From a virus, in IMG/VR virus record IMGVR_UViG_3300045988_114702: DNA of 64,000 nucleotides. One strand, written 5' to 3'. Below the pieces are notes generated by a model. It was not told the DNA's origin. It did no database searches and saw only the letters and a list, made by a program, of their open reading frames with translations. Position 1 is the stretch's first letter. Each line of letters opens with the position of its first letter. Position numbers and translations under genes: made by a program. Positions 29,777-61,512 of the stretch are shown here, piece after piece.

Positions 29777-30108
29777 TACAGCTCACCTCCCATAAACAGA
29801 GTTTCCAGCACGCTCACACGCTCTTCCAGAGAGGGCGCAGCTTCATCAGCGGTCGTCCATGCTTCTGCATAGACCCACCAATCATCAGCCGCCGCCGTGA
29901 TGCTTTCCACGGTTTCCTCTGCATAATCGGAACCCAACTTGCAAAGAGCCGTGGTGCACTCCCACGAAGTACCGCCCTGCTCTCCTTCGGGAGCCTCGGT
30001 TCGTACCTCATGAGCGTCCTTACGCAGGTACAGCCAAGCCGTACCGTCCGGCAGTTTTTCCAGCGTTACCGCCTGCGGATTATGGTCAAGGTTCTCGGTA
30101 AAAATCAT
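29776..30108 (-). CDS. Acidic hypothetical protein in the XkdW position
   Basis: 110 aa. Forms an ATGA overlap with the RT stop and is followed by the XkdX-like ORF. Confidence 0.45.
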   Translation of the reverse strand: MIFTENLDHNPQAVTLEKLPDGTAWLYLRKDAHEVRTEAPEGEQGGTSWECTTALCKLGSDYAEETVESITAAADDWWVYAEAWTTADEAAPSLEERVSVLETLFMGGEL

Positions 30109-31349
30109 GCTGCTATCCTCACTTTCTTCATTGCATTTCTTTGTGTCGTTACGCGGATTGCTACTTTTGCGGCCGTGAACAGCTTTTTCTGTTTTAGGGC
30201 TTCGCTGATTGCACGAGATTTTGTCCAGTCAAAATAGCCGTTATAGCTGACCAGCTTGTATGACCGCCAGACCGGCACATATCCATTTCGTGAAACATCA
30301 GCCTTGGCTCGAATGTACTGCCGCCGAGCCCTCAGAAAAATTCTGGGGCGTATCGTGGTGTAGGTACGGTGCATCACATAGCCAGCCATATCCAAACCCG
30401 GGCATCCTTTTGCCGCTCCCGTTAGGTGTCTGCGTTGATGCTCTTCAGCGGCGCTAAGAAAGTCCACACGAACCCACTCGTTTTTTATTGTCAATCCCAG
30501 TTCGGTCAGCGCCCACTTAGTCAATTTTCGGGCTGCACTCTGTATGTCAGCCCATCGTCGGCCAAACAAAACAAGGTCATCCATATAGCTACCGCTGCGG
30601 ATCACGAATCGCGTGGATGCTCCACGGCGAATCTTTGCATAACTCATGACCTTGACCAGCATATAGCTGGCAACAAGGTTAAAAAGCCACGCTTCAAGAT
30701 AGCCGCCGATAAGCAATCCCTCACCCGGAGCCATTGCTAAAAGACATTTGACAACAGCCAGAAGCCATGTTGCTCCCGGGATTTCTTTCTGCAGGATCTT
30801 CATCACAAGTTCCTGTTTTGTGTGGGCGTATGCCCCCTGCACATCCAGCTTTATTGCATACTGTATGCCAAGACTTTTTCTGCGAAGCCAACGCTCGACT
30901 TGACGCTTCAAAGCGATTTGTCCCTTGCCGGGAATACTGGCAAATTGATACGGCAACAGTTTTGCCTGAAGCAACGGGCGAAGTCCAAGTACCGCCAAAT
31001 GCCCAAAAGCTTGGTGCATTGGACAGCAGTTAGACAGTTCCCGCCGTTTCATGCTGATTCCATCAATTCTGTAGAACACGCTCACAGGGTCAAGATCAAG
31101 GTCGTCTGTTTCTCCGTCCAACAAATCTTCTATCCGTTGCTCCATTTCAAGAGCAATCCCATTTACGGCTTCTAAACGCGGGTTCCAGTCGTTTACGCGG
31201 GCGGCGCTCGATAGTTGTGCACGGCTTACACCTCCATATTTTTCCACCGTAGCGAGGTAATCCCGGCGGAACCATTTCTTATCAAAAGCTTCAAGGACAG
31301 CACGCTCGCACATTTCATGATTGAGCGACAAGTACCTCTTTGTTTTCAT
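30105..31349 (-). CDS. Reverse transcriptase (DGR-type by context)
   Basis: YMDDLVLFG catalytic box, and upstream RT motifs (RRELSNCCPMHQAFGHLA...ASIPGKG). ATG at 31349 follows GGAGG (the ORF is open to TTG at 31382). Confidence 0.85.
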   Translation of the reverse strand: MKTKRYLSLNHEMCERAVLEAFDKKWFRRDYLATVEKYGGVSRAQLSSAARVNDWNPRLEAVNGIALEMEQRIEDLLDGETDDLDLDPVSVFYRIDGISMKRRELSNCCPMHQAFGHLAVLGLRPLLQAKLLPYQFASIPGKGQIALKRQVERWLRRKSLGIQYAIKLDVQGAYAHTKQELVMKILQKEIPGATWLLAVVKCLLAMAPGEGLLIGGYLEAWLFNLVASYMLVKVMSYAKIRRGASTRFVIRSGSYMDDLVLFGRRWADIQSAARKLTKWALTELGLTIKNEWVRVDFLSAAEEHQRRHLTGAAKGCPGLDMAGYVMHRTYTTIRPRIFLRARRQYIRAKADVSRNGYVPVWRSYKLVSYNGYFDWTKSRAISEALKQKKLFTAAKVAIRVTTQRNAMKKVRIAA

Positions 31350-31592
31350 ATCCTTAAAGCCTCCAAACTTGCTGATGTTCAACGGATTTCGGTTGCCGTT
31401 TCAGGCCTTAAATCAGGCAAAACGGATTTCTACTACTCACCGCCACGCAGTCCCAAAAACTGCGGCCACGCTCTCACCAATGCGTCCGTATATCTCGAAA
31501 CGCTCAGCTACATGGTGTCGGTATAACATGATCTTAGTGGTCAAGCCACAGGCGCAATGAAACGCTTATGCCCTTTTGAGGGCTATTTATCA

Positions 31593-31742: not shown

Positions 31743-31772
31743 ACACGCCGCTTCATTGCTCCATAAAATAAT

Positions 31773-31808: not shown

Positions 31809-31827
31809 GGAAACGTGAACAGGGATT

Positions 31828-31863
31828 AGGGGGTTACACCCCCTCTATGTGCCTACGGCACAT
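31828..31863 (-). promoter_or_regulatory. Two tandem 7-bp hairpins with identical triloops just 3' of the VR gene stop
   Basis: AGGGGGT-TAC-ACCCCCT (31828-31844) and ATGTGCC-TAC-GGCACAT (31847-31863). Confidence 0.45.
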
Positions 31864-31865
31864 AT

Positions 31866-33593
31866 TCACCCTCTCTTTTTGCCCGAGCCAGCAAGCCGGG
31901 GCACGCCGCACCAGCCCGAGAACGCCGGGGAAACGCCGCCAAACGCGCAAGGCAGGCCGCAGCAAGCACCGCCATACAGGTAGCCACCGCACCAAGGGGC
32001 GCACAGACCCGCCGAACCGGGCGAAACAAACGCAGCCCGTACATAGGTGGAACCGCTGCCATTGAACTTTTCATACATCATGGCTTCCGTACCCAACTTG
32101 CCCAGCTTACGGATATAGTGCCACGACCAAGTCGCCTTGTCGTTCAGGTCGAAGGAGCCGGTCTGGGCATAGTCCGAGGAGATAGAACCAACCTGCTTCT
32201 CACCGCTCTTGCAGGAGAACACGTCATAGTGCCAGTGGTCATCGTCCACGATGCTGGCTTTCCACAGAGGGTCAAGCTGTTCCGTATAAGCGCCGATCTG
32301 CATCTCGATGCCGGCCACACGGTACGGATATTTTCCGTTCGTCAGATTACCCCGACATCCATCGCTATGTCCCTGCACGCCCTCTGTTGTGCCGGACTCC
32401 CACGGCATAGTAGATACCAGCATCGTGGTCGTAGTGTCGATAGGAGAATCCAACTCAAGGTTCAGAGCCACATACTCGGTCTCGCTCACGGTCACATTGG
32501 TAATGCTGGAAATCTTGGCCCAGTTGAAAATATTGTGATTATAGTCCGTGTTGCGGTCCGTTCCCGTATTCTCGCCACGCTCACCCATGCAAACAGCAGA
32601 GCCCACAAGGAAATTTGCCCCCTGCGCTTTCGTCACGAGCACTCGCTTTACTCCCGTTTCCGCCACAGCAGGGCTGTACTGGTAATTATAGACAGTGCAG
32701 CCCTCCAGCTTGCCGCTGTTGCTCAGCGTCCAATGGCGCAGCCGCCACTGCGCCAGAACATACTGCTGGTCGCAGTCAGTCCACAGGGCATCATAAGCGG
32801 TGATTTTACGAGCCAGAGGGATAGCAGCGTTGGCGCTTGTCCACGGCATCGGGGGCAGTCCAGCACCGCTGGTCATTCCACCCTTGGAATTTTTGCCGCC
32901 AAGGAAAGCCGGGTGCCATGTCAGCCAGCGGCGACTCTTATCAGGGGCCACATCGCCAGCCATAGGATCATAGCCGCCGCCCTCGAAGGTGCGGAAAGAG
33001 TTATACAGGTATGCGCCATCCTCCCACTCCTTCAGCATCAAGGACAGAGCGAAGCAGTAAACGGGTGCGGTTTCGCCGGAAAGATCAAACCCGGTTTCAC
33101 CCTCAACTGCCAGCACGTTCATCGTGCCATCTTCCAAGGACAGCGCATTGGCGCGAATGTACCATGTGAAAGGATCCTCTTCCGACCAGTCTGCGGTTTC
33201 CGGGCTGGTGTCAGTCAGAAGCGGAGCCGCTTCACGCCCGTCTGCCAGATCATCCAGCGGGGTGCCGGTGTAATCACCACTCACATCATCACTGTAGAAG
33301 CGAACGGTGTAGGTTTTGCTGCGAGCGCTCTCTGCGAGCATTTTCGCAAAGCGTTCCAGGCGCTGATACTTCGTCACGCCATCACCGGCAGACAGCGGCC
33401 ACCAGCTCCAGAAGATTTCTGTGGTATTTTTGCCATCCAGCAGACCGCGGAATGTTGCATCCACGAATTCTGCGCCGGCAGTACCGGCAGCAATGCCTGC
33501 CAAAATGTCATTTTGGCGTTTCATCTGAGCGGCCAGTTCCAGACCGGTTTCATCGCTCATAGGATGATTGATAAGTTCCCATGTGTCACCCAT
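31866..33593 (-). CDS. DGR target protein (putative receptor-binding fibre protein with variable C-terminus)
   Basis: 575 aa located in the fibre locus. The last about 50 codons are the VR (...CAPWCGGYLYGGACCGLPCAFGGVSPAFSGWCGVPRL...). Confidence 0.8.
   Translation of the reverse strand: MGDTWELINHPMSDETGLELAAQMKRQNDILAGIAAGTAGAEFVDATFRGLLDGKNTTEIFWSWWPLSAGDGVTKYQRLERFAKMLAESARSKTYTVRFYSDDVSGDYTGTPLDDLADGREAAPLLTDTSPETADWSEEDPFTWYIRANALSLEDGTMNVLAVEGETGFDLSGETAPVYCFALSLMLKEWEDGAYLYNSFRTFEGGGYDPMAGDVAPDKSRRWLTWHPAFLGGKNSKGGMTSGAGLPPMPWTSANAAIPLARKITAYDALWTDCDQQYVLAQWRLRHWTLSNSGKLEGCTVYNYQYSPAVAETGVKRVLVTKAQGANFLVGSAVCMGERGENTGTDRNTDYNHNIFNWAKISSITNVTVSETEYVALNLELDSPIDTTTTMLVSTMPWESGTTEGVQGHSDGCRGNLTNGKYPYRVAGIEMQIGAYTEQLDPLWKASIVDDDHWHYDVFSCKSGEKQVGSISSDYAQTGSFDLNDKATWSWHYIRKLGKLGTEAMMYEKFNGSGSTYVRAAFVSPGSAGLCAPWCGGYLYGGACCGLPCAFGGVSPAFSGWCGVPRLAGSGKKRG
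31888..32037 (-). repeat. DGR variable repeat (VR)
   Basis: Aligns to TR at an offset of 295 nt. There are 24 mismatches, 22 of them at TR adenines. Confidence 0.85.
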
Positions 33594-52107: not shown

Positions 52108-53478
52108 TTAGTCCTCCTTCTCGCCAGCATGACGCTGGATCATACGATCGCGGGCCTCGTCAGGGTTGTTCTTCTTGCCCACATTGCGGACTGCCGCATT
52201 TGCGGAATCAGCATTGAACACCTGACGACGCTGGTCTGCCACAGTCTTGCGACCATTGATTTTACCCTTTGCGATATCAAAAGCCGCGTTGATGTAGGCT
52301 TTGCTCTTGCCATCCAGACGCATACCCGGAATAACGGCATGAACGACCTTTTTCTTTGCCTGCATTACCGGCATGGACTCCATGCCATCCAGATGCAGCT
52401 TATCGCCCAGCCGACACAGTTCCACACGCTGGCTGACCTGCGCGGCAATGGATGCGGCGCTGTCATGGTTCAGCTGGTTGCTGGAATCGTCCGAGGTATC
52501 ATCCTCATCTTCGGTAGGCTTGGTGTCGTCCTCTGCAGCATCAGCGCGGGCATTTGCGGCATCCAGCATAGACAGCAGGGTGTTGATGTCCGCTTTAGCC
52601 TGACCGTCCTCCATGGCATCACGGCGGGCAGTAATCTCTGCCAGCGCATCGGGCTTTGTAGGATCATCCTCGCCATCATCCTCGGTGGGCTTTGCAGGCT
52701 CACCGCCTGCTGCCGGGTCATTTTCATCGTCAGCAGTAGCGCCGCCGGCTGTTGCCGCCATGTACGCCTTGATTGCTGCCTGAATGCCAACGGGGTCAAG
52801 GCCGGGAGCCGCAGGGGGACCGCCCGCATCCTCGCCATCATCAGTGGTAGGCTTCGTAGTGTCCACGGTGGTATCATCGTCCTGAGTGGGGTTGTTCATC
52901 TTTTCGTTCTCATCCATAGGGGTCATACCTCCATTGTTATCTTGGCTGTCCATATTCAGGCGGGCATCATCACCGGCACGGGCGACAGCAACCAGTGCCA
53001 GATGATTGACACGGATATGGGTCTGGATTGCATCATACGGCTCTCCGTTCCATTCTCCGGGTTCCATGATAAGGTCCTGATAATACCCAACAGACAGTTC
53101 CCGCAGACCGGATGCCTTTACCGCATCCGGGTCGTCAATGACGATTTTTGCACGAACGGTTTCTCCGTCCTGCTGTCCAGGGGTCAGGATTGTTCCCACT
53201 CTCTCCCGGCGGGCATTGTCCTTGTCGATTACCTGCGCATCGTGGGTTATGATGATGGGTTTTCCCTCATAGCTTGCAAGGCTTTCCGGGGCAAACACAT
53301 CTTCCGGCCTGCGCAATTCTCGACGCTCCGAGCCATCTTCCAGCGTGTACTTGAAGATGCCCGTGCGGGTCAGGATGGGGTTATCATAAAAATATCCCTC
53401 GGTGCTGTAATGCTCATCGACAGGCACACTGTCTGTCCGCATTTCGCTCCGAAGGACTAGCGGCGGATTCTGTTTCAT
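52108..53478 (-). CDS. DUF2213-like scaffolding protein with acidic repeat region
   Basis: The N-terminal half ends in ...LSVGYYQDL...IRVNHLALVAVARAGDDARL (DUF2213 pattern). The middle is Asp/Glu/Thr/Pro-rich. Confidence 0.55.
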   Translation of the reverse strand: MKQNPPLVLRSEMRTDSVPVDEHYSTEGYFYDNPILTRTGIFKYTLEDGSERRELRRPEDVFAPESLASYEGKPIIITHDAQVIDKDNARRERVGTILTPGQQDGETVRAKIVIDDPDAVKASGLRELSVGYYQDLIMEPGEWNGEPYDAIQTHIRVNHLALVAVARAGDDARLNMDSQDNNGGMTPMDENEKMNNPTQDDDTTVDTTKPTTDDGEDAGGPPAAPGLDPVGIQAAIKAYMAATAGGATADDENDPAAGGEPAKPTEDDGEDDPTKPDALAEITARRDAMEDGQAKADINTLLSMLDAANARADAAEDDTKPTEDEDDTSDDSSNQLNHDSAASIAAQVSQRVELCRLGDKLHLDGMESMPVMQAKKKVVHAVIPGMRLDGKSKAYINAAFDIAKGKINGRKTVADQRRQVFNADSANAAVRNVGKKNNPDEARDRMIQRHAGEKED

Positions 53479-54395
53479 TGTTTCTTCTCCTTAAAGGCTG
53501 CAGAATTCAGCCTATCGAAGTTAAAGACAGGTTTTGCAACACAGCGGCACTGGTAGTCCTCTCCGGGATTGCAATGCCGCCCGCTATACACTTTGCCGTG
53601 CTTTGTCATGTACCACATGGCCGGCGGATCGTCATAACGGAATTTCTGGCCATCAAGTTCACGGTGGCATTCGCGCACACGTTCATCACCTGATGAACTC
53701 CAGATATATTCCTCTACCCCAGCGGATTCCTGCCTTGTGCGGGTCAGATTCGCGCTCAGGGTGCCCACCTGGTCACGCGCAAGAAGATTGGCTTTCGACT
53801 TGGTCACATCAAACCGGCGTTGAATTTCATTGGAAATCGCCGCCGGGGTGCGGCCTTTTGCAAAACCCTCAATAATGACGTTCTCCATATCATCGAAGCA
53901 GTCGCTTTCAATGCTGGTAATGAAGCTGACATTTTGCTCAACCCATCTTTTAAGCATCAGGTCGTATCTTTCGCCGAGAAAGAAGTCGTCATGGATATCC
54001 ACTCCCAGCGTGGCGCGCACGCTGCGCTGCCATTCTTTGAGTTGCCGCCGGTCGGTGTAGTCAGCGCACCGGCGAACATCCCGTTCCAACGGATCGGTTT
54101 TCAGCCGCCGACTGAGCCGGTCACGCATAATGCGGAACCTGCTCTGGATGCGGCGAACCATGTCGCTGTATCCATCATGTCTGATGCTGTCGGAGCCGGT
54201 TTTCTGTTCTTCCGCAACGATAGCCAGAATTTCAGGCATGGATTCTCGCACAATCTTCTGCAGTTCTTTCAACCGCCGATTTTCGATTGCGCGCATCTTG
54301 CTTTCTGCCCACTGCGGATACTCCGGCTCGATCTTTGATTTTTTCATCATTGAAGAGCGCCCGGTCATGCCGGGCCCATTATTCTTCACAGGCAT
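53475..54395 (-). CDS. Head morphogenesis protein (SPP1 gp7 / Mu F-like)
   Basis: WSSSGDERVRECHRELDGQKF...GRHCNPGEDYQCRCVAKP is a MuF domain signature. ATG at 54395 follows AAAGAGG (a GTG at 54401 is also possible). Confidence 0.75.
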   Translation of the reverse strand: MPVKNNGPGMTGRSSMMKKSKIEPEYPQWAESKMRAIENRRLKELQKIVRESMPEILAIVAEEQKTGSDSIRHDGYSDMVRRIQSRFRIMRDRLSRRLKTDPLERDVRRCADYTDRRQLKEWQRSVRATLGVDIHDDFFLGERYDLMLKRWVEQNVSFITSIESDCFDDMENVIIEGFAKGRTPAAISNEIQRRFDVTKSKANLLARDQVGTLSANLTRTRQESAGVEEYIWSSSGDERVRECHRELDGQKFRYDDPPAMWYMTKHGKVYSGRHCNPGEDYQCRCVAKPVFNFDRLNSAAFKEKKQ

Positions 54396-54442
54396 ATCCA
54401 CCTCTTTATCTTTCCGGGAACCATTTTCCCTTTGCAGACATC

Positions 54443-54681: not shown

Positions 54682-54758
54682 TGGTGCTGGAGGTGGGGAT
54701 TGAACCCACAGCCTGACGGTTACAAATCGCCTGCTCTGTCCTATTGAGCTACACCAGC
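54682..54758 (-). tRNA. tRNA-Thr (anticodon UGU), CCA encoded
   Basis: Manual cloverleaf: acceptor GCTGGTG/CTCCAGC (one T-T mismatch), D arm GCTC/GAGC, anticodon loop TTTGTAA, T arm GTGGG-TTCAATC-CCCAC. Confidence 0.7.
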
Positions 54759-54765
54759 GTAAAAG

Positions 54766-54838
54766 CCGAGGGTACCGGGCTCGAACCGGCGGTCTGGGAG
54801 TCAAAGGCCCATGCCTTATCCAACTTGGCCAACCCTCG
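54766..54838 (-). tRNA. tRNA-Gln (anticodon UUG), no encoded CCA
   Basis: Acceptor CGAGGGT/ACCCTCG, anticodon arm TGGGC-CTTTGAC-TCCCA, T loop TTCGAGC. Resembles Firmicutes tRNA-Gln. Confidence 0.65.
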
Positions 54839-54841
54839 ATA

Positions 54842-54917
54842 TGGAGCAGTCAACGGGGCTTGAACCCGCGGCATCCTGCTTGGAGGGCAGGCGCTCTACC
54901 AACTGAGCTATGACTGC
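54842..54917 (-). tRNA. tRNA-Gly-like (anticodon UCC) with unusual C at position 33, CCA encoded
   Basis: Acceptor GCAGTCA/TGACTGC, discriminator T, anticodon arm CCTGC-CCTCCAA-GCAGG, T arm GCGGG-TTCAAGC-CCCGT. Confidence 0.6.
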
Positions 54918-54982: not shown

Positions 54983-55180
54983 TTAGTCAAACACCTTTTT
55001 GCCTTCGGCAAACTTCTTTTTAGCTTCGTTCAGGCTGATGCGGTTATAACCGCCGCGATAATCAGGATCCGCTCTCTGCACGCCATCATTTACCCAGCCG
55101 CACACGGGGCATTCCTCAAAATCGTTGTCTTCATCAAAGCTATGCTGCCCACATACCGGGCAGAGGATTTTCTCAGTCAT
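54983..55180 (-). CDS. CPCC-family cysteine-rich small protein
   Basis: MTEKILCPVCGQHSFDEDNDFEECPVCGWVNDGVQ. ATG follows GGAAGGAA. Confidence 0.5.
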   Translation of the reverse strand: MTEKILCPVCGQHSFDEDNDFEECPVCGWVNDGVQRADPDYRGGYNRISLNEAKKKFAEGKKVFD

Positions 55181-57512
55181 CTTCGATTCCTTCCAATTCA
55201 AGCTGACGTTTATAGTAATCTTCCCCATCGTCAGGCTTGAACATCGTTCTTACGCCCTTCTCTGGGGAACCTTTTGCAAAGTCATTTTTCTTCGCGTCAT
55301 ACCGGCACACAAGGCCATCTTTTGTCTTGTAGCCTTTTATACCGTTTCCGCACGGGCTTTCCAAAAGTTGAACCGCCCGCTTTTCGTACTGCTCCTTTGT
55401 TGTAATGCCATCGGGAGCGTACTCAGCGGCGTGGGTTCTTCCATTCTGCCAGTGGTTGTTCAGTTTCTGCTTGTTGGGGAAACCTTTCACCTTGAAAATG
55501 TTCGCGCCTTTTGCCGAAACTGCGTTAGAATTTATTTTAGCATGACTTTGAGAATCATTCAAGTCTTTTGATGAATTTTCCTCGCTCGATACATCTTTTG
55601 ATGATGTAGAACCGCCAGAACTGGAGAACTTTCCATCTTCATCGCGGTTGTGCTTGCTCTCGTCAAAATCATCCAGTGTAATGCCCAGCCGGTCAAGGTA
55701 TTCTTTCACGCTTCTGAGAAACGGTTCAAACACAAGTCCACCGGGCACATCCTGTTTCAAAATCTGTTCAGGGGGCATCCATGTAGCCGTGAACATCTCC
55801 TTTTGGTCACACCGAGGAACGCCATCGAAGCCATTGACGAGATAGATCTGAACGGGAAGCACCTCATCCGGCTTGCCCTTGCAGTTGCCGAGATAGGTAA
55901 TATCTCCCACGTCAATATTGAACTCTTCCTTTGCTTCCCGGCGGAATGCCACGCTCGGCGTTTCCCCGGGTTCGATGTGACCGCCGGGGCCGCACCAGCC
56001 TTGCCCATCGGAGCGTTGGCCGCAGAGGATTTTTCCATCATTCAGAACGAAGCCGGCAACATAACCGCAGTCACCTTCATCCGTAACCAGGTTGCCTGCC
56101 GCAGGCGGGTTCTGCGGATTGGTCGGCTGGGGAACGTCAGCCTCGCCCAAGCCCCAGTCCTGATTAACATCTGCTTCCGTGATGATGTTTTCAGGGTCAA
56201 ACTGTTCATCCTGCGCCAAGGACTGGCGAACCTCGGGGATTTCCAAAATACCAGCCGTAACGTATGTAGATACAGTCTGTGCTCTGGTAAGCTGGGCCGC
56301 GGCATTTGCCTGGTCCTGCGTAGCCTTTTCATCATCAGACAGGCTCCATGCGCTCTTGTAGGTGATAGTGTACTCCGGCACCTCTTTGATTTCGCCGTTC
56401 CACACCATTCCGCGCAGAATCAGTTCGACCAGCGTGCGGGTGTTGTCCCGGAGGTCGCCAGACTGGATGCCGGACACGGCTTCCTTATAGTTCTCCATGT
56501 CCCCTTCGCCGGTGGCATTTTCACCCGCTGGGGAACGGCCAAAGAGCCTAGTCTGCGGGATATGGCTCACAGCAGACAGCATTGCGCAGGCATTGTCCAG
56601 AATGTCCTTAACACCAGCCACAGACAGGGATTGAATGCCCACATCCTCGCCATCTGCATCAATAAAGACCATGTTCAACAGATTACGGGCAAGGTCAAGC
56701 ATCTCCATACGCTGAAGAACCGTATCGTCACCGTCTACTGTAGACAGGACATTTGCGAGATTCTTCATTTTGTATGTCACCATTGACAGCCGTTCCAGCA
56801 AGCGAATGGAGTAGCCCGGACCGATGCAGGCGTTGCGAAGTTCTTCGCGGATGTGCATATACTCCGGAATGCCCCATGTACGGTAGAGGTTGGCCATCGT
56901 GGAGCCTTCGGGGATCTCCCCGTTATGGAATATCAGGCAGCGGGAAGAATGCACCACATAGCTGCCGTACACGCTGTTCACCTGGTAAAACTCCGGGATG
57001 CCCGTACCGCCTTTGCGGTAGTTTTCATCGTCAGGGTTGTTCTCATAGCCGTTGATCCACAGCGGGAACACCTCGTTGCGGCCGTAAACCAGCAATTCTG
57101 CCACGCCGTGAACATCCCGCCAGTTCAGCGGATCCTGAAGAAGTCTGCCATCGTCCACCAGCATAACAACAGCGGAGCCACCGAACAGACGCGCCCATTT
57201 CAGCGCCTTTGCAAGTTTGCTTTGGTAGTGAATGGTCTGCAGGTGGTCATCCAGCCGCTTTTGTAGGTCTTTATCCTTGATACCCAGGTCAATGCCATTC
57301 TTGGTGGCATCATCCGCTGGGGCATCAATGATGGTCGAAAACAGACCATTTCCTGCATAAAGGTCGGCCAGTTCCGCGTCTGTCACAGCAGCACCAGTTG
57401 CCCACTGGTAATACTCGGTGCTATCGTGCTGGGTGCCATACTTGTTCAGGACGTTGTAATAGCCATCGAGGCGAAGTTGTGGTTTGATTTTACCGGCAAT
57501 AACTTTTTTCAC
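55173..57512 (-). CDS. Portal protein (DUF1073-like) fused to a Nudix hydrolase domain and a C-terminal module
   Basis: N-terminal about 440 aa are portal-like. Nudix box GGHIEPGETPSVAFRREAKEEFNI at aa 509-532 (about 55698-56072). A Ser-rich linker and a 115-aa C-terminal domain follow. Confidence 0.7.
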   Translation of the reverse strand: MKKVIAGKIKPQLRLDGYYNVLNKYGTQHDSTEYYQWATGAAVTDAELADLYAGNGLFSTIIDAPADDATKNGIDLGIKDKDLQKRLDDHLQTIHYQSKLAKALKWARLFGGSAVVMLVDDGRLLQDPLNWRDVHGVAELLVYGRNEVFPLWINGYENNPDDENYRKGGTGIPEFYQVNSVYGSYVVHSSRCLIFHNGEIPEGSTMANLYRTWGIPEYMHIREELRNACIGPGYSIRLLERLSMVTYKMKNLANVLSTVDGDDTVLQRMEMLDLARNLLNMVFIDADGEDVGIQSLSVAGVKDILDNACAMLSAVSHIPQTRLFGRSPAGENATGEGDMENYKEAVSGIQSGDLRDNTRTLVELILRGMVWNGEIKEVPEYTITYKSAWSLSDDEKATQDQANAAAQLTRAQTVSTYVTAGILEIPEVRQSLAQDEQFDPENIITEADVNQDWGLGEADVPQPTNPQNPPAAGNLVTDEGDCGYVAGFVLNDGKILCGQRSDGQGWCGPGGHIEPGETPSVAFRREAKEEFNIDVGDITYLGNCKGKPDEVLPVQIYLVNGFDGVPRCDQKEMFTATWMPPEQILKQDVPGGLVFEPFLRSVKEYLDRLGITLDDFDESKHNRDEDGKFSSSGGSTSSKDVSSEENSSKDLNDSQSHAKINSNAVSAKGANIFKVKGFPNKQKLNNHWQNGRTHAAEYAPDGITTKEQYEKRAVQLLESPCGNGIKGYKTKDGLVCRYDAKKNDFAKGSPEKGVRTMFKPDDGEDYYKRQLELEGIEDD

Positions 57513-57531: not shown

Positions 57532-58929
57532 TCATATCAGACTGCGCACATCAAAGATGCCGCCCTCATACAGCGCAAGAGCTACCGCGTCAGCGCGGTC
57601 AGGACTGGTCAGGCCGCGCTTCTTCAAGGCATCCTTGCCTTCAAGTTTCAGCTTCAGTGGTGTGCCCGCGAAGATGTATTTACGGGTGGTAAGTTGTCCT
57701 ATCAGGGTTGAATCGTTCGGGATATGTAGGGTGCCTGCCGTGGCCATATCCCGTAGGACTGCCCACATCCACGTTGCGATATCTGCATAGCGCCCGGCGG
57801 CTTCCTTGTCCGGCACGGCGCTGGAGAAGTTCACCGGCACGACCATCAGCTTGGTTAGCTTCTGCCGAATCTTTTCTCGGTTGAGAATGTCGGTCACGCC
57901 GCCGCCAACGCCGGTGTCATCAATGACCGCATAAATCAGGCCGCGGTACTGCGGATACGCTGCACGCAGGGCTTTATATATCGCAATGATATCATCTGCC
58001 GTAGCGTACAGGTCTTGACCGTGGCGTGTGACCAGCTTTTGGATATCTCCATCAATGTTCTGTGCAATGGCCGTATCATCGTTGCCAAAGCGGGCAACGT
58101 CACACCCGATGGATATCCGGGCTGGAGAACAATGTTCCAGAGGTTCAGTATTGACAGCCTTTGTGGCGAGTGCCATCGGAATAAAGACATCGTCCTCATT
58201 CTCCGGGAACTCTCCGTCAACACGGACACGGACTACATTGCTGTTCTTGCCGAACTTCCGCTCCAAGTCAGCGATATTCTGCTTATTCGTGCGGGGGCTG
58301 TCCCTGCTGGACACCTTCATACAGTAGTAGGACTGGGCGTCCACGGTATGCGAATCGTGGAATGTGCCAGTGTTCTGCGTTGGGTTTCCGCACATCAGTA
58401 AGCGGTTGTTATCGCCGGAAAGCGTGCCCTGTATAGCCTCCATGATGGGGTCAGCAACACCAGATGCCTCATCCACCACGAAAAGCATATTGTCTTCGTG
58501 GAAGCCCTGCATATTCTCCGGCTTGGTGGCTGTTCGAGCCACGGCGAACCAGCGTTTCTCATGTCCTCTCATGTAAACACGAGTCTTTGTCCATACAAGC
58601 ATAGCCTGCAAGACAGGGCTGCGTTCCTGCCACTTGGCAATCTCGGCCCAGAGGACATCATTTAACTGCTGACGAGTCGGAGCCGTGCACACCACGCGTG
58701 GATACGGGAAGCAGGACAGAAACCAAAGGACTAGGTTCGCTTCAAAAGCAGTCTTGCCAACGCCCTGTCCTGAGCGAATTGAAACCTTGCGGTGTTGTGC
58801 AATAGCTGTGGCGGCTTCTTTTTGCCACGGATCAGGCGCAAAGCCAGTCACCTCCGCAAAGAATTTGCAGGGATTTTTGCGGTACAAGGGCACCCGCCGG
58901 GCAAAGACTTCACGTTGCTTCATCGCCAT
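57532..58929 (-). CDS. terL: Terminase large subunit
   Basis: Walker A-like SGQGVGKT, plus a nuclease-half pattern with acidic residues. ATG at 58929 follows GGAGGG (the ORF is open to 58974). Confidence 0.8.
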   Translation of the reverse strand: MAMKQREVFARRVPLYRKNPCKFFAEVTGFAPDPWQKEAATAIAQHRKVSIRSGQGVGKTAFEANLVLWFLSCFPYPRVVCTAPTRQQLNDVLWAEIAKWQERSPVLQAMLVWTKTRVYMRGHEKRWFAVARTATKPENMQGFHEDNMLFVVDEASGVADPIMEAIQGTLSGDNNRLLMCGNPTQNTGTFHDSHTVDAQSYYCMKVSSRDSPRTNKQNIADLERKFGKNSNVVRVRVDGEFPENEDDVFIPMALATKAVNTEPLEHCSPARISIGCDVARFGNDDTAIAQNIDGDIQKLVTRHGQDLYATADDIIAIYKALRAAYPQYRGLIYAVIDDTGVGGGVTDILNREKIRQKLTKLMVVPVNFSSAVPDKEAAGRYADIATWMWAVLRDMATAGTLHIPNDSTLIGQLTTRKYIFAGTPLKLKLEGKDALKKRGLTSPDRADAVALALYEGGIFDVRSLI

Positions 58930-59865: not shown

Positions 59866-60327
59866 TCACACGACCTTTGCGAGAGCGGTTTTAGAGATCA
59901 TCAGGTTTCCCAGTTCCACGGCCAGGAATGTGCCCGCGAACAGGCCAGCACTTGTCAGCCAGAACGGCGCGCCGACCATCATAGACAGCTCCACACCGAT
60001 GAACAGAGCCACGGACAGGGAGAGAATAACCGCTTTCCACAGAATCCCCAGCTTTTTCCACGGCCCCCAGACCACCAGTGCGTATGCAGTCCCCTCAGCC
60101 AACAGACCAAAGAGCACATCGACCGGGCCGAAAGGACTCGTTGCGTTTGCGATTGCAATTCCCAACAGCACCGCCGGGGCATACCGTTTATCCTTGAACG
60201 GGAGCGCACACAGCATATTGGCCACGCGGAACTGCACAGCTCCCCAGGACAGCGGGTTCAGGGTAGTTAATGCGACATACAGAGCCGCGACAACTGCAGT
60301 TTGGCAGAGGGCTTTGGTGTTTTTCAT
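59866..60327 (-). CDS. queT: QueT-like queuosine-precursor transporter (membrane)
   Basis: The five-to-six TM pattern and the N-terminus TKALCQTAVVAALYVALTTLNPLSWGAVQFRVANML resemble the QueT family. Confidence 0.55.
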   Translation of the reverse strand: MKNTKALCQTAVVAALYVALTTLNPLSWGAVQFRVANMLCALPFKDKRYAPAVLLGIAIANATSPFGPVDVLFGLLAEGTAYALVVWGPWKKLGILWKAVILSLSVALFIGVELSMMVGAPFWLTSAGLFAGTFLAVELGNLMISKTALAKVV

Positions 60328-60341
60328 GTTCCCTGTCCCCC

Positions 60342-60653
60342 TCATACCATAACGACCACATTACCGTGGGGTGCGTCATTCACCGCGGATTCGACCATGA
60401 TCCAGCTGGGGTGCACTTCCTCAACCAGCTTTTTCTTCAGCTTGCTGGCCGCTTCCTCGATGACCAGGCTTTCACCTTCCAGACATTCGCGGATGAACTT
60501 GTCGATCTCGCAGTAGTCCGGGATAATCTCTGCCGGCTCCATGGTCACGGTAAATTCATTGGTGTAGTCTGCCTTTCCGATGGGGCAGAAGCACCGGCAT
60601 TTCTGCTTGTAGACGATTTTTCGCACGCCGTAGCGATTTTCAAACTTAGCCAT
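60342..60653 (-). CDS. QueF-like T-fold protein (preQ0 reductase-like)
   Basis: CFCPIGKADY aligns by eye with the QueF catalytic CPxTGQPDF. The later IEE aligns with the QueF FHE. ATG follows AAGGAGAAG. Confidence 0.45.
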   Translation of the reverse strand: MAKFENRYGVRKIVYKQKCRCFCPIGKADYTNEFTVTMEPAEIIPDYCEIDKFIRECLEGESLVIEEAASKLKKKLVEEVHPSWIMVESAVNDAPHGNVVVMV

Positions 60654-61512
60654 TGTTTTCTTCTCCTTTCGGCTTCTGAACGATGAACAGCAGTTCTTTT
60701 GCCTCACGCGGGAACGGAATCGCCATAAAGGCTGTGAGGAATGCAGACGGGACATAGGCTTTCATGCGGGTGTAGAAGTCCCGCAGTGCCGGTTCCTGCT
60801 TGGAATAGAACTCGTCCATCTCCCGGACGCTGGTGACCAGACCAACCTCCTGCACAATGCTGAATCCGATTTCGGCCAGCTTGGCTTTCAGTTCATCGTA
60901 GCCCCACTCATAGACATGAGCGCGGTACTGGGTCTGATACCCATTGCCCGGGGTGTTCGGACAGGAGAGAAACATCTTTGCACCCGGCTTCATCACCTTG
61001 TAGCATTCTGCAAGGCTTTTTGCGCCGTCCGTAGGGTGCATATGCTCAATGGCAGAGGTGTAAATCACAAAATCGGCAAACCCCGCCGGGATGACTTTCG
61101 ACATCTCAGCAACGTTGCCCAGCTTCCAACCCACCCGGAACGGGTAGTAGGAAGTCAGATCTTTAGGTTCAAGGTTCTTTGCGGTTGCGCCGCGCATAGC
61201 CTCTTTGATGTTCGCTTTGCTGATGTCTACGCCGGTATAGGATGCAATATCCTTTGCGTAGTAGCGCAGCAGCGGGAGCATCAGAGAGCGGCCGCAGCAC
61301 ACATCCAGCACGTTCATGCCCTTTTTCGCCATGTGGGCGGCGGCAAGGTGCTGGATATAGTTCATTACGTCCAGATTGGTGAAGAAACCGTCTCTGAACT
61401 GCATATAAAAATTCCGCATCTGGTAGGTGGTGCAGAGAATTTTTTCTCTGTCCATGCCATCCTCAACGCGGTATACGATATCTTTATCCACGCCATTTTC
61501 CTTTCGTATCAA
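60646..61512 (-). CDS. Class I SAM-dependent methyltransferase
   Basis: Motif I VLDVCCGRSLM and the later VIYTSAIEHM. Start uncertain (TTG 61512, GTG 61491 or ATG 61455). Confidence 0.65.
   Translation of the reverse strand: MIRKENGVDKDIVYRVEDGMDREKILCTTYQMRNFYMQFRDGFFTNLDVMNYIQHLAAAHMAKKGMNVLDVCCGRSLMLPLLRYYAKDIASYTGVDISKANIKEAMRGATAKNLEPKDLTSYYPFRVGWKLGNVAEMSKVIPAGFADFVIYTSAIEHMHPTDGAKSLAECYKVMKPGAKMFLSCPNTPGNGYQTQYRAHVYEWGYDELKAKLAEIGFSIVQEVGLVTSVREMDEFYSKQEPALRDFYTRMKAYVPSAFLTAFMAIPFPREAKELLFIVQKPKGEENNG

What the first reader, a model, noticed from the sequence alone, without database searches (positions are those of the whole stretch)
55173..57512. Portal protein carrying a C-terminal Nudix hydrolase and a further 115-aa module
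The first about 440 aa look like a DUF1073-type portal. After a Pro/Gln-rich linker there is a complete Nudix box (GGHIEPGETPSVAFRREAKEEFNI, aa 509-532; domain at about 55698-56072). Next comes a Ser-rich linker, then a basic C-terminal domain (NHWQNGRTHAAEY...TKEQYEKRAVQLL...GYKTKDGLVCRYD...GVRTMFKPDDGEDYY). That domain reminds me of the small toxin/effector modules appended to MuF and portal proteins in temperate Firmicutes phages.

A portal fusion would place up to 12 copies of an enzyme inside the capsid, for delivery or exposure at DNA ejection. Nudix enzymes hydrolyse ADP-ribose-type and other nucleotide-diphosphate signals and RNA caps. It is therefore a candidate pre-packaged anti-defence or host-takeover activity.
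Basis: partly seen in the sequence, partly recalled or inferred. Interest (0 to 1): 0.65.

Follow-up and report, generated by a model that had tools for sequence, protein, structure and literature searches.

The report
Phage portal carrying Nudix and toxin
A temperate Faecalibacterium phage has welded two cargo domains onto its portal protein, a Nudix hydrolase and a bacterial-warfare-type toxin whose antidote gene lies immediately downstream, so the virus particle probably carries ready-made enzymes into the next cell.

Summary
ORF 55173..57512(-) encodes a 779-aa protein with three parts: a PF06381 portal, an intact Nudix domain, and a 115-aa C-terminal module. The parts are joined by two disordered linkers.

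The fusion is not an artefact. In IMG/VR, 58 of 59 complete loci keep all three parts in one frame, and each domain has dN/dS of about 0.03-0.10. Split versions are a minority.

The new result concerns the C-terminal module.
- It is homologous to the toxin chain of the solved E. coli CdiA-CT/CdiI complex 8EY4. Its fold is colicin-D-like (BECR RNase fold).
- The 65-aa Cys_rich_CPCC gene overlapping the portal stop codon (54983..55180) is homologous to that complex's immunity chain (E=1e-16).
- CPCC follows the module in 79 of 79 loci.
- A 98%-identical backbone carries a different tail, and L082/L083 pair such a tail with a different downstream gene.
- The same module sits on other portals, MuF and prohead-protease proteins.

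So this is a portal-anchored polymorphic toxin/immunity system with a Nudix co-cargo. The kind is already predicted in the literature (MuF toxins; portal-PBECR and portal-Nudix polyvalent proteins). Still untested: the Nudix substrate, RNase activity and virion delivery.

The parts
55173..57512 (-). Whole ORF: portal-Nudix-toxin fusion protein, 779 aa, GTG start, TGA stop at 55173-55175
   Evidence: ORF; phrog_15528 matches aa 2-779; one open frame in 58 of 59 complete IMG/VR loci
56295..57374 (-). Portal domain (Pfam Phage_portal_3 / DUF1073, aa 47-406; folded region about aa 40-445)
   Evidence: E=1.1e-68; Foldseek prob 1.0 to the portals of phages Pam3, E217, FCWL1, T1, Pa193, XM1, all about 370-440 aa and lacking such an extension; dN/dS 0.055-0.07
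56070..56162 (-). Linker 1, Pro/Gln-rich, aa 451-481, predicted disordered
   Evidence: pLDDT below 50 over aa 451-481; evolves faster than the domains
55683..56069 (-). Nudix hydrolase domain, aa 482-610; Nudix box at aa 511-533 (nt 55914-55982)
   Evidence: PF00293, E=5.4e-17; BdRppH 3EES, E=3.5e-12; MutT/MTH1/NudG/ADPRase at 1e-5 to 1e-7; structural matches to BdRppH, Thermus ADPRase, Ndx1, MutT; Nudix box intact in 71 of 71 variants and dN/dS 0.03-0.08
55524..55682 (-). Linker 2, aa 611-663. It contains the conserved junction motif DDFDESKHNRDEDGKF (aa 614-629, nt 55626-55673), followed by a Ser/Gly-rich stretch. The recombination breakpoint for tail swapping lies here, and so do the lesions in the split variants.
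   Evidence: pLDDT below 50 over aa 611-663; four different lesions in L002-L005; the motif is kept while the tail changes; P0036 is 98.4% identical to aa 626 and then diverges; motif variants counted
55176..55520 (-). C-terminal toxin module, aa 665-779: CdiA-CT(8EY4)-like, colicin-D-like BECR fold. Conserved residues are H687, H694, E697, R737, T756 and K759.
   Evidence: pLDDT 87, pTM 0.81; 8ey4_A E=3.7e-4, prob 1.0, TM 0.75; colicin D 1v74/5znm/1tfk/1tfo prob 0.80-0.87; profile vs 8ey4_A, E=2.9e-5; invariant residues; 928 representative clusters, match always at the extreme C-terminus; dN/dS 0.04-0.10
54983..55180 (-). Cognate immunity gene: 65-aa Cys_rich_CPCC zinc-ribbon protein. Its ATG overlaps the portal stop codon (ATGACTGA), and a GGAAGGA Shine-Dalgarno-like sequence sits 6-7 nt upstream. 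The mechanical ORF list starts it at 55228 (81 aa), but relatives use the 65-aa start.
   Evidence: PF14206, E=1.1e-16; 8ey4_I and 8ey3_A, the immunity chain, E=1.2e-16; present directly downstream in 79 of 79 loci with a complete module; sequence of the overlap; 65-aa gene calls in relatives; FP_Brigit gp31 is a homologue, E=2e-16

Best explanation
This is a portal-anchored polymorphic toxin/immunity system with a second enzymatic cargo, carried by a temperate Faecalibacterium phage.

Shown here:
- The portal gene is extended by a MutT/RppH-like Nudix hydrolase, attached through a disordered linker.
- A second linker begins with a conserved 'ESKH.RDE.G(K/R)F' motif and leads to a ~115-aa toxin domain.
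- The toxin domain is homologous to an E. coli contact-dependent-inhibition toxin (CdiA-CT, PDB 8EY4).
- The next gene is translationally coupled by an 8-nt overlap. It encodes the matching CPCC zinc-ribbon immunity protein.
- Near-identical phages swap the tail (98.4%-identical backbone, P0036), and in L082/L083 of the same lineage the downstream gene is swapped with it.
- The same toxin plus CPCC cassette sits on other portal families, on MuF-like and prohead-protease-like head proteins, or stands alone.

Inferred:
- The toxin is a metal-independent RNase of the colicin-D/BECR type, probably cutting tRNA or another translation RNA.
- Portal C-termini face the capsid interior. Up to twelve copies of Nudix plus toxin would therefore be enclosed in every head.
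- The cargo is freed at the flexible linkers, perhaps by the head protease, and leaves with the DNA into the newly infected cell. There it would help host shut-off or counter-defence.
- The CPCC protein protects the producing cell during late gene expression. It would also protect lysogens from toxin delivered by incoming sister virions.
For: Fusion real and selected:
- 58 of 59 complete IMG/VR loci are in one frame.
- dN/dS is 0.03-0.10 for each of the three domains.
- The Nudix box and the toxin motif are intact in every variant.
- Protein clusters with this backbone hold 2,729 and 6,415 member sequences.

Toxin identity:
- The module model is confident.
- Foldseek top hit is 8ey4_A (prob 1.0), followed by the colicin D tRNase.
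- A sequence profile reaches 8ey4_A at E=2.9e-5, with shared HW..H..E[FY] and RTMFKPE.G.EY motifs.
- H..E and T..K fit the colicin D clade signature listed in PMC3482391.

Immunity:
- CPCC matches chain I of 8EY4 at E=1.2e-16.
- CPCC is adjacent to the module in 79 of 79 loci.
- The start/stop overlap is 8 nt.

Polymorphism:
- L082/L083 have the same backbone and junction, a different tail and a different acidic downstream ORF.
- P0036 is 98.4% identical to aa 626 and then carries a different tail.
- There are at least 3-4 tail types on the portal-Nudix backbone.

Carriers are head-interior proteins:
- Phage_portal 11, Phage_portal_3 7, MuF 2, VG15 1 and Peptidase_S78_2 1, plus DUF2213.

Other support:
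- Beads-on-a-string architecture.
- Temperate lifestyle and Faecalibacterium host.
- Precedent: MuF toxins with adjacent immunity genes (PMC5576092, PMC11699363); predicted packaged portal-PBECR and portal-Nudix fusions (PMC5512222, PMC9503650).
Against: - No experiment or virion proteome is available, so packaging, cleavage and ejection are all inferred.
- A cargo covalently attached to all twelve portal subunits cannot leave unless it is cleaved. No protease site was identified. The junction motif occurs only once in the window and in only about a fifth of the family members that could be scored.
- The activity of the 8EY4 toxin is not documented in the searchable literature.
- Similarity to colicin D is only moderate (TM 0.45-0.5, E about 0.04-0.08).
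- No Pfam BECR, colicin D or Ntox model is matched.
- R737 is not conserved in 8EY4.
- A minority of relatives carry the toxin as a separate ORF, so the covalent link is not indispensable.
- A phage that needs host translation would have to limit a tRNase's action.
Confidence: 0.6

Rival explanations
1. The Nudix domain is the main point. On this view it is a pre-packaged anti-defence enzyme that destroys ADP-ribose-derived or other nucleotide immune signals (Thoeris/CBASS-type), or NAD caps, as soon as the DNA enters. The C-terminal module would be secondary.
For: - The Nudix domain is present on nearly the whole portal_3 backbone family, including tail-less forms of 600-650 aa.
- Catalytic residues are intact in 71 of 71 variants and dN/dS is 0.03-0.08.
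- PMC9503650 proposes exactly this role for Nudix domains fused to MuF, portal or head protease.
- Thermus ADPR pyrophosphatase is among the structural matches.
- A Pro lies 15-16 residues after the box, as in the ADPRase signature (seen in the sequence; own knowledge of Dunn et al. 1999).
Against: - The best sequence and structure matches are BdRppH (RNA pyrophosphohydrolase/GTPase), MutT, NudG and MTH1.
- No ADPR-specific accessory domain is present.
- No Macro, NADAR or NAD-salvage partner lies near the gene.
- The substrate cannot be read from the sequence.
- This reading does not conflict with the toxin reading, because both cargos may act.
Confidence: 0.3
2. The toxin/immunity pair works inside the producer or lysogen rather than being delivered by the virion. 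It would act as an addiction or stabilisation module, or as a toxin released at lysis. The fusion to the portal would only be a convenient way to express it late.
For: - The module plus CPCC persists as a stand-alone pair in prophage remnants and between lysogeny and packaging modules (L006-L013).
- Split variants keep an intact toxin ORF with its own ATG.
- Toxin-antitoxin-like overlapping gene pairs are typical of addiction modules.
Against: - In the 31 longer family members the N-terminal partners are almost exclusively head-interior proteins: portals, MuF, VG15, prohead protease and DUF2213. That pattern points to capsid targeting rather than expression convenience.
- The toxin has no receptor-binding or translocation domain for uptake from outside.
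- Late structural genes are silent in lysogens, so a portal-fused toxin cannot enforce prophage maintenance.
Confidence: 0.12
3. The C-terminal module is a catalytically inert nucleic-acid-binding domain with a structural role at the portal, for example holding the DNA end or RNA. An inactive PBECR domain was proposed for phage Mu gp30 in the same way.
For: - PMC5512222 notes an inactive PBECR domain in Mu MuF.
- The module is basic and sits where the packaged DNA end lies.
- RNase activity is unproven.
Against: - Two invariant histidines plus Thr/Lys are kept across 31 very diverse members.
- A dedicated immunity homologue is kept next to the module in 79 of 79 loci.
- The homologous domain is a growth-inhibition toxin crystallised with that immunity protein.
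- Near-identical phages replace the module with unrelated tails, which argues against a structural requirement.
Confidence: 0.06
4. The fusion is an assembly or frameshift artefact, or it depends on programmed recoding, and the true products are separate proteins.
For: - Protein-database hits to the module were all short proteins.
- L002-L005 and L080 have separate ORFs.
- The F. prausnitzii strain 2 prophage has portal and Nudix in different frames.
Against: - 58 of 59 complete IMG/VR loci, two Faecalibacterium MAGs and FP_Brigit are in one frame.
- Full-length clusters hold thousands of member sequences.
- The split cases carry four different lesions (a 20-nt deletion, a TAG stop, a 1-nt deletion and a 4-nt duplication). 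No single recoding signal can explain these, and removing each lesion restores one frame.
- The short-protein bias came from how the word-based search and exact-protein look-up select their hits.
Confidence: 0.02

Closest known systems
MuF polymorphic toxins of temperate phages (Jamet et al. 2017, PMC5576092; Apk2 and Bxa, PMC11699363, PMC10083569)
   Same: - A conserved head-protein domain lies at the N-terminus and a variable toxin at the C-terminus.
- One or more small immunity genes follow directly downstream.
- They are found in temperate phages of gut Firmicutes/Bacteroidetes and sit in the packaging/head-morphogenesis module.
- The anchor is proposed to target the toxin to the capsid.
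   Different: - The anchor here is the portal itself (PF06381), not MuF. This phage's MuF gene (53475..54401) is separate and has no tail.
- The copy number would be 12 per virion rather than the 1-2 reported for SPP1 gp7.
- A second enzyme (Nudix) is inserted between the anchor and the toxin.
- The toxin family differs: it is CdiA-CT 8EY4-like, not an ART or a (p)ppApp synthetase.
Polyvalent proteins with portal fusions (Iyer et al. 2017, PMC5512222) and Nudix fused to MuF/Portal/head protease (Iyer et al. 2022, PMC9503650)
   Same: - Several effector domains share one polypeptide with a virion structural domain.
- BECR-fold RNase (PBECR), 2H and InPase fused to portal, and Nudix fused to portal, are explicitly described.
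- These are predicted to be packaged and injected.
   Different: - Those papers treat the two fusions separately and do not describe a cognate immunity gene or tail swapping on a portal.
- The module here matches no Pfam PBECR model.
- The Nudix was assigned there to a T4 NudE-like clade, which could not be verified here.
CdiA-CT/CdiI toxin-immunity complex of E. coli O32:H37 (PDB 8EY4; immunity protein alone 8EY3)
   Same: - Both partners are homologous: toxin at profile E=2.9e-5 and Foldseek prob 1.0, immunity at E=1.2e-16 with about 50% identity over 54 residues.
- The gene order is the same, with the toxin C-terminal domain followed by the immunity gene.
   Different: - Delivery differs. 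In E. coli the toxin follows a VENN motif on a type V secreted CdiA filament. Here it follows a portal-Nudix and a different junction motif.
- The host is a Gram-positive-type Clostridia member.
- R737, invariant in the phage family, is Tyr in 8EY4.
Colicin D tRNase domain with ImmD (PDB 1V74, 1TFK/1TFO, 5ZNM)
   Same: - Same BECR alpha+beta fold: N-terminal helices followed by a four-stranded sheet.
- H-x-x-E and T-x-x-K motifs lie in positions matching the clade signature Hxx[ED] ... [TS]xxK (PMC3482391).
   Different: - There is only fold-level similarity (TM 0.45-0.5, 10-14% identity).
- The immunity protein is unrelated (CPCC zinc ribbon versus ImmD).
- The RNA target is unknown here.
Faecalibacterium phage FP_Brigit gp30 'portal protein' plus gp31 (NC_047909)
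   Same: - It has the same three-part architecture (828 aa, 37% identity over aa 7-759) and the same junction motif (DHPRDENGQF).
- The tail is homologous (E=7e-17) and a CPCC homologue overlaps the stop codon (E=2e-16).
   Different: - It is annotated only as portal and hypothetical protein.
- It belongs to a different genus-level lineage.
- No tRNA trio lies downstream.
Phage T4 Alt and internal proteins; P22 and T7 ejection proteins (own knowledge)
   Same: Enzymes or proteins are enclosed in the head and injected with the DNA to act before phage gene expression.
   Different: Those are separate proteins targeted by a capsid-targeting sequence or assembled as a core. They are not C-terminal extensions of the portal.

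Membership tests
Phage portal protein, Phage_portal_3 (PF06381, ex-DUF1073) | Match to the family profile above the curated threshold over nearly its whole length | tested here: met
   232 bits against a cut-off of 33.8, profile positions 2-354 of 357
Phage portal protein, Phage_portal_3 (PF06381, ex-DUF1073) | Portal fold, and gene position between the large terminase and the head morphogenesis/capsid genes | tested here: met
   Foldseek prob 1.0 to the Pam3, E217, Pa193, T1 and XM1 portals. TerL at 57532-58974 upstream; MuF, DUF2213 and capsid genes downstream.
Phage portal protein, Phage_portal_3 (PF06381, ex-DUF1073) | Dodecameric ring at one capsid vertex, with the C-terminus facing the capsid interior | not testable with these tools
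   Inferred from solved portals of the same family (own knowledge). No multimer modelling or virion data are available.
Nudix hydrolase superfamily (PF00293) | Nudix box G-x5-E-x7-R-E-U-x-E-E-x-G-U with the metal-binding Glu residues and Arg | tested here: met
   G511, E517, R525, E526, E529 and E530 are present, and the penultimate G is N532. The box is intact in 71 of 71 relatives.
Nudix hydrolase superfamily (PF00293) | Profile match above threshold, and Nudix fold | tested here: met
   62.5 bits against a cut-off of 21.1. TM 0.65-0.75 (normalised on the target) to BdRppH, Thermus ADPRase, Ndx1 and MutT.
   Top hits are BdRppH (3.5e-12), then MutT/MTH1/NudG and Thermus ADPRase, all at 1e-5 to 1e-7. 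All NCBIfam equivalog scores are far below their cut-offs. T4 NudE itself was not among the tblastn hits in phages.
Polymorphic toxin systems (Zhang et al. 2012) | A conserved N-terminal trafficking part with variable C-terminal toxin domains exchanged by recombination | tested here: met
   A 98.4%-identical backbone carries a different tail (P0036). L082/L083 show the same. At least 3-4 tail types occur on the portal-Nudix backbone.
Polymorphic toxin systems (Zhang et al. 2012) | A cognate immunity gene immediately downstream that co-varies with the toxin domain | tested here: met
   CPCC follows the module in 79 of 79 loci. The alternative tail is followed by a different acidic 96-aa ORF.
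Polymorphic toxin systems (Zhang et al. 2012) | The same toxin domain is used by different delivery systems | tested here: met
   It is found on CdiA in E. coli (8EY4, 'PT-VENN domain-containing protein'). It is also found on PF04860 portals, PF06381 portals, MuF, VG15, Peptidase_S78_2 and DUF2213 proteins.
Polymorphic toxin systems (Zhang et al. 2012) | Growth inhibition by the C-terminal domain and neutralisation by the immunity protein | not testable with these tools
   This needs expression experiments. Only homology to a crystallised toxin-immunity complex is available.
Contact-dependent inhibition (CdiA/CdiB/CdiI) system | The toxin follows a VENN (PT-VENN) motif at the end of a filamentous CdiA exoprotein, with CdiB encoded nearby | tested here: not met
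   The N-terminal part is a portal plus Nudix. There is no VENN motif; the junction is DDFDESKHNRDEDGKF. The neighbours are phage head genes. Only the toxin/immunity cassette is shared.
CdiA-CT(8EY4)/CPCC toxin-immunity pair family | Homology of both partners, and their adjacency | tested here: met
   Toxin: E=3.7e-4, prob 1.0, TM 0.75 on target, 26% identity; E=2.9e-5. Immunity: (E=1.2e-16). The start/stop overlap is 8 nt.
BECR-fold RNases (colicin D clade; PBECR1-5, Colicin_D and Ntox Pfam families) | Alpha+beta fold with N-terminal helix or helices and a four-stranded antiparallel sheet resembling colicin D | tested here: met
   (helices H27-36, H41-47 and H52-64, then four strands). (colicin D chains at prob 0.80-0.87, TM 0.40-0.51). 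The support is moderate.
BECR-fold RNases (colicin D clade; PBECR1-5, Colicin_D and Ntox Pfam families) | Sequence match to one of the curated family models | tested here: not met
   No Pfam hit at E up to 10 for the module or for any of its 22 homologues. No NCBIfam hit. The family is not represented in these libraries.
BECR-fold RNases (colicin D clade; PBECR1-5, Colicin_D and Ntox Pfam families) | Catalytic signature Hxx[ED] in the N-terminal helix and [ST]/[TS]xxK in the last strand; RNA cleavage | tested here: inconclusive
   H694-x-x-E697 and T756-x-x-K759 are present and (nearly) invariant. They fit the signature quoted in PMC3482391. No residue-level superposition on colicin D was possible, and activity is untested.
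MuF polymorphic toxins (Jamet et al. 2017) | An N-terminal MuF domain (PF04233/PF06152 or MuF3/4) | tested here: not met
   The protein has no MuF domain. MuF is a separate 308-aa gene without a toxin tail. This protein works like a MuF toxin but is not a member of that family.
Polyvalent proteins (Iyer et al. 2017) | Two or more distinct effector domains in one polypeptide of a phage or mobile element, often with a virion structural domain | tested here: met
   Portal, Nudix and toxin are in one ORF. Longer relatives add an ADP-ribosyltransferase (P0118, 1,342 aa).

The most novel reading that the evidence does not exclude
Portals, rather than MuF, may be a major and so far unstudied delivery platform for polymorphic toxins in gut Clostridia phages.
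- Every virion of a very abundant Faecalibacterium prophage lineage would carry twelve copies of an RNase toxin plus a Nudix enzyme.
- Tail/immunity swapping between 98-99% identical prophages would set up strain-level incompatibility. Lysogens expressing the matching CPCC immunity would survive incoming virions, while non-immune Faecalibacterium strains would be intoxicated or taken over.
- The two cargos might cooperate: a Nudix acting as an RppH-like trigger of mRNA decay, and the toxin cutting tRNA.
- The conserved junction motif could be a capsid-targeting or release signal shared by many head-anchored effectors.
Probability: 0.25. Interest if true: 0.7.

Novelty: new member of a known kind. 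Interest (0 to 1): 0.45.

Why it matters
[quoted passage not shown] Protein clusters with this portal-Nudix backbone hold thousands of member sequences in public metagenomes.

Head-anchored toxins (the MuF toxins) are known from genomics. Two have been shown to be toxic, but their biological role and their delivery remain unproven.

This case offers a well-defined test system:
- The anchor is the portal itself, so stoichiometry and position in the virion are fixed.
- The toxin/immunity pair has a solved homologous complex (8EY4) to guide mutations.
- A cultured relative (FP_Brigit) carries the same arrangement.
- Natural variants exist with swapped tails, split genes or no tail.

Showing that the cargo is in the virion and enters the cell would establish portals as effector-delivery devices. 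It would also explain part of the strain-level phage-host specificity in the gut.

The work also gives a function to the widespread Cys_rich_CPCC (PF14206) domain in phages: an immunity protein.

Tried and rejected
1. Artefact or frameshift. The first protein search returned only short module proteins, and four relatives had split genes. DNA-level sampling then showed 58 of 59 complete loci in one frame. The split cases carry four unrelated lesions, so both an artefact and programmed recoding are rejected.

2. tRNA link. I tested whether the Gly/Gln/Thr tRNA trio next to the cassette co-varies with the toxin type, as replacement tRNAs for a tRNase would. The same trio is present with the alternative tail, and it is absent from other module-bearing phages. 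Rejected.

3. Curated family for the module. Pfam, NCBIfam and PADLOC gave nothing, even at E=10 across 22 homologues. Only PHROGs matched: phrog_15528 and, weakly, a minor head protein family.

4. Junction motif as a general head-protease site. The motif occurs only once in a real ORF of the window. It is found in only 8 of the 40 family members that could be scored, and my regex missed many members. Its role is left unexplained.

5. Literature on 8EY4 and on PF14206. One unrelated paper was found for each, so the toxin's biochemical activity could not be taken from the literature.

6. Nudix substrate assignment from nearest relatives. The result is ambiguous.

7. T7 Gp8-type portal moonlighting against the stringent response (PMC13483052). 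That mechanism uses the portal ring surface, not an appended enzyme. It is not relevant here.

Full report
**1. The observation**

The minus-strand ORF 55173..57512 (GTG start, 779 aa) is present as described.
- Pfam places Phage_portal_3 (PF06381, the former DUF1073) at aa 47-406 (E=1.1e-68) and NUDIX at aa 486-588 (E=5.4e-17).
It reads G511-x5-E517-x7-R525-E526-A-x-E529-E530-x-N-I, so every catalytic residue is there.
- A full-length AlphaFold model built on 26 homologues shows three folded units: about aa 40-445, aa 482-610 and aa 680-775. They are separated by two stretches with pLDDT below 50, at aa 451-481 and aa 611-663.

The gene sits in a standard packaging/head module.
- Upstream are the small terminase (58910-59752) and the large terminase (57532-58974).
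- Downstream are a small CPCC gene, three tRNAs, a tail-less MuF gene (53475-54401), a DUF2213 protein and the capsid genes.

**2. Is the fusion real?**

The first protein search with the C-terminal 117 aa returned only short proteins of 99-199 aa. In four near-identical relatives (L002-L005) the portal-Nudix ORF and a 148-aa module ORF were called separately.
- The four loci carry four different lesions within about 40 nt of linker 2: a 20-nt deletion, a GGA-AAG to GGG-TAG stop, a 1-nt deletion and a 4-nt AAGC duplication. Without each lesion the frame is continuous.
- Looking up contigs by the exact 148-aa protein necessarily selects contigs with a lesion just upstream of its ATG, so that sample was biased.
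- An unbiased DNA-level scan of IMG/VR with the Nudix-plus-module segment gave 75 loci. Of the 59 with complete portal, Nudix and module, 58 have all three in one open frame of 786-795 codons. They fall into two sub-lineages, at 96-100% and about 86% identity.
- Two Faecalibacterium MAGs are also fused, as is the cultured phage FP_Brigit (828 aa, 37% identity over aa 7-759).
- phrog_15528 matches the protein end to end.
- Full-length database clusters hold 2,729 and 6,415 member sequences.
- Pairwise dN/dS between sub-lineages is 0.055-0.07 for the portal, 0.03-0.08 for the Nudix and 0.04-0.10 for the module. The linkers evolve faster.

The fusion is therefore genuine and each part is under purifying selection. 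Split versions are a real but minor polymorphism. The F. prausnitzii strain 2 chromosome is one such case; there the portal and Nudix frames differ.

**3. What the C-terminal module is**

- The module alone, modelled with 21 homologues, has pLDDT 87 and pTM 0.81. It has three N-terminal helices, a four-stranded antiparallel sheet and a C-terminal helix.
- Against the PDB the top match is chain A of 8EY4, described as 'Contact-dependent growth inhibition toxin-immunity protein complex from E. coli O32:H37' (E=3.7e-4, prob 1.00, TM 0.75 on the target, 26% identity). Next come five chains of the colicin D tRNase domain (prob 0.80-0.87).
- A sequence profile of the module reaches the same chain, named 'PT-VENN domain-containing protein', at E=2.9e-5. 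The aligned motifs are HW..(K/R).H..E[FY] and RTMFKPE.G.EY.
- Across 31 very diverse family members H687, H694, Y709, G727 and R737 are invariant, and T756 and K759 are nearly so.
- H694-x-x-E697 and T756-x-x-K759 fit the colicin D clade signature 'Hxx[ED] ... [TS]xxK' given by Zhang et al. 2012 (PMC3482391). I could not superpose residues, so this is an inference.
- No Pfam, NCBIfam or PADLOC model covers the module.

**4. The missed partner**

- The small gene after the portal encodes a 65-aa Cys_rich_CPCC zinc-ribbon protein (PF14206, E=1.1e-16).
- Its ATG at 55180 overlaps the portal stop codon (ATGACTGA), and a GGAAGGA sequence lies just upstream.
- It matches chain I of 8EY4, and 8EY3, at E=1.2e-16. 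Chain I is the immunity protein of the same complex whose toxin matches the module.
- In all 79 fetched loci with a complete module and enough downstream sequence, a CPCC homologue starts within a few bases of the module's end. The same holds in the bacterial-genome loci wherever sequence is available.
- FP_Brigit gp31 is also a CPCC homologue (E=2e-16).

Both halves of a crystallised toxin-immunity pair are thus present, in the same order, at the end of a portal gene.

**5. Polymorphic behaviour**

- L082/L083 belong to the same phage lineage (portal 87% and Nudix about 81% identical). They keep the junction 'LDDYDESKHSRDEKGRFSSTGGSSGS'. After it they carry an unrelated basic tail followed by an unrelated acidic 96-aa ORF instead of CPCC.
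- P0036 is 98.4% identical to the window protein over aa 1-626 and then switches to that other tail.
- Among the 120 best full-length homologue clusters, 37 carry this module. These include portals only about 40% identical and long forms of 875-1,342 aa, one with an ADP-ribosyltransferase domain. Another 40 carry the basic tail, 3 carry a third tail, a few are singletons and about 36 have no tail.
- Conversely, the module family has 928 representative clusters at E<=1e-3 in 1.84 billion proteins, and the match is always at the extreme C-terminus.
- Of 31 longer members, the N-terminal domains are Phage_portal (11), Phage_portal_3 (7, of which 6 have NUDIX), Phage_Mu_F (2), VG15 (1) and Peptidase_S78_2 (1). 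A DUF2213 carrier was also seen.
- Stand-alone module plus CPCC pairs occur in a Ruminococcus flavefaciens prophage whose own portal carries Ntox50. They also occur in a prophage remnant that retains a truncated Brigit-like Nudix.

These are the defining behaviours of polymorphic toxin systems: a conserved trafficking part, exchangeable C-terminal toxins, a co-varying immunity gene, and the same toxin used by several delivery systems. All the carriers are proteins that reside inside the procapsid.

**6. The Nudix domain**

- It is intact and conserved in 71 of 71 variants.
- The nearest solved relative is the Bdellovibrio RNA pyrophosphohydrolase BdRppH (E=3.5e-12, 33% identity). MutT, MTH1, NudG, Thermus ADPR pyrophosphatase and Ap6A hydrolase follow at similar, weaker levels.
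- All NCBIfam equivalog scores are far below their cut-offs.
- The substrate cannot be assigned. It is no better supported than an RppH/MutT-like activity.

**7. Mechanism**

Shown: the architecture, the homologies, the linkage, the swapping, the selection, the temperate lifestyle (tyrosine integrase at 25894-27006) and the Faecalibacterium host.

Inferred:
- Portal C-termini lie in the crown, facing the capsid interior (established for solved portals; own knowledge). The nearest solved portals (Pam3, E217, Pa193, T1, XM1) are 370-440 aa and lack the extension. The roughly 340 extra residues per subunit would therefore sit inside the head, at up to 12 copies.
- Release would need cleavage in the flexible linkers. 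The conserved junction motif is a candidate site or signal, but nothing here shows this.
- After ejection the RNase toxin and the Nudix would act before phage gene expression.
- CPCC would protect the producer late in infection. It would also protect lysogens against incoming sister virions.

I put about 0.9 on the toxin/immunity identity, about 0.6 on RNase activity and about 0.5 on virion delivery.

**8. Comparison with what is known**

- Functionally this is closest to the MuF polymorphic toxins (Jamet et al. 2017, PMC5576092; Apk2 and Bxa, PMC11699363). It is not a member of that family, because it has no MuF domain.
- It fits the definition of a polyvalent protein. Iyer et al. 2017 (PMC5512222) already list PBECR-, 2H- and InPase-portal fusions, and Iyer et al. 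2022 list Nudix-portal fusions. The general idea is therefore published, but only computationally.
- What I did not find in the literature searched:
  - the link to the solved 8EY4 pair;
  - the role of PF14206 as the immunity partner in phages;
  - the combination of Nudix and toxin on one portal with tail/immunity swapping between 98%-identical prophages;
  - the predominance of portals among carriers of this toxin.
- It is not a CDI system: there is no VENN motif, no CdiA filament and no CdiB.

**9. Verdict**

This is a new member of a known kind. Interest is moderate (0.45). The kind is predicted but experimentally unproven, and this example is abundant in the human gut. It also has a cultured relative and a structural template, which makes the delivery question directly testable.

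Noticed in passing
window 30105-33593 (minus strand): A diversity-generating retroelement.
- A reverse-transcriptase-like ORF lies at 30105..31382 (RVT_1, E=4.6e-5).
- A 149-nt repeat pair is present. The template-like copy is at 31594-31742 and the variable copy is at 31889-32037, at the 3' end of the 575-aa ORF 31866..33593. The copies are 85% identical.
- Almost all mismatches fall at adenines of the template copy.
- The target is probably a receptor-binding protein.
   Followed up: partly
L002-L005, L080 (junction about 5940-6010 in L002-L005); L091: A minority of near-identical relatives have the toxin module as a separate ORF with its own ATG.
- Four different lesions lie in the same ~40 nt of linker 2: a 20-nt deletion, a TAG stop, a 1-nt deletion and a 4-nt duplication.
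- The F. prausnitzii strain 2 prophage has portal and Nudix in different frames.
- Part of the clustering is ascertainment bias.
- Whether uncoupling is selected for (for example in decaying prophages) is open.
   Followed up: partly
window 55626-55673; also FP_Brigit gp30, L092, L096, L102, L105, P0013, P0020, P0024, P0025, P0159, P0248, P0288: A short motif recurs just upstream of the toxin module, in portal fusions and in stand-alone toxins alike.
- Its forms include [ED]xxH(P/N/K)RDxxG(K/R)F, the variants ELRYNxNHDEKGRF and W(I/V)TxNG(K/R)H(I/V)xIG. Each is followed by a Gly/Ser stretch.
- It marks the recombination breakpoint for tail swapping.
- Its function is unknown (cleavage site, capsid-targeting signal or only a recombination scar). 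I did not find it described in the papers read.
   Followed up: partly
L082 4400-5420, L083; proteins P0036, P0038-P0075: An alternative C-terminal tail of about 115 aa occurs on the same portal-Nudix backbone.
- It is very basic (sequence '...ARILKARDARMKQKTKYAPSKQRK...GFGGADVKSR...').
- It is followed by an acidic 96-aa ORF and a YjcQ-like gene.
- Neither the tail nor the acidic ORF has a Pfam match.
- This is presumably a second, uncharacterised toxin/immunity pair. A third tail type (P0123) and a fourth (P0131) also exist.
   Followed up: partly
window 54682-54917 (minus strand): Three tRNA genes (Gly-UCC, Gln-UUG, Thr-UGU) lie between the immunity gene and MuF. They are conserved in this phage lineage whichever tail is present, and absent from other module-bearing phages. 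There is thus no sign that they compensate for the toxin.
   Followed up: yes
window 59866-61512 (minus strand): A QueT-family queuosine-precursor transporter (59866..60345) and a SAM-dependent methyltransferase (60646..61512) lie directly upstream of the small terminase. They are conserved in relatives. This may relate to 7-deazaguanine or another DNA modification by the phage.
   Followed up: no
L010-L013 (Ruminococcus flavefaciens prophage), 5738-10800: In this prophage the PF04860 portal carries an Ntox50 toxin domain at its C-terminus and is followed by small ORFs, including a 'Sequestin' family protein. A stand-alone copy of the present module plus CPCC sits between the CI-like repressor and the large terminase. 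One prophage thus holds two head-associated toxin cassettes.
   Followed up: no
L006-L009, 5709-7095: This looks like a prophage remnant. It holds a 105-aa truncated Brigit-like Nudix fragment, then the module as a 195-aa ORF, then two tandem CPCC genes. It lies next to a 937-aa NAGPA-domain protein and an LPD3 polyvalent protein. The toxin/immunity pair outlives the portal, and the immunity gene is duplicated.
   Followed up: partly
proteins P0114 (1,162 aa) and P0118 (1,342 aa): Distant relatives of the same portal family carry an additional ADP-ribosyltransferase domain (PF03496) together with the Nudix and the same toxin module. That makes three cargo domains on one portal.
   Followed up: no
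window 25894-27006 (plus strand) and 24805-25830: A tyrosine integrase with an Arm-DNA-binding domain, and a neighbouring DUF4236 protein, are on the opposite strand in a low-GC stretch (46%). This marks the lysogeny module or a prophage end inside the window.
   Followed up: no
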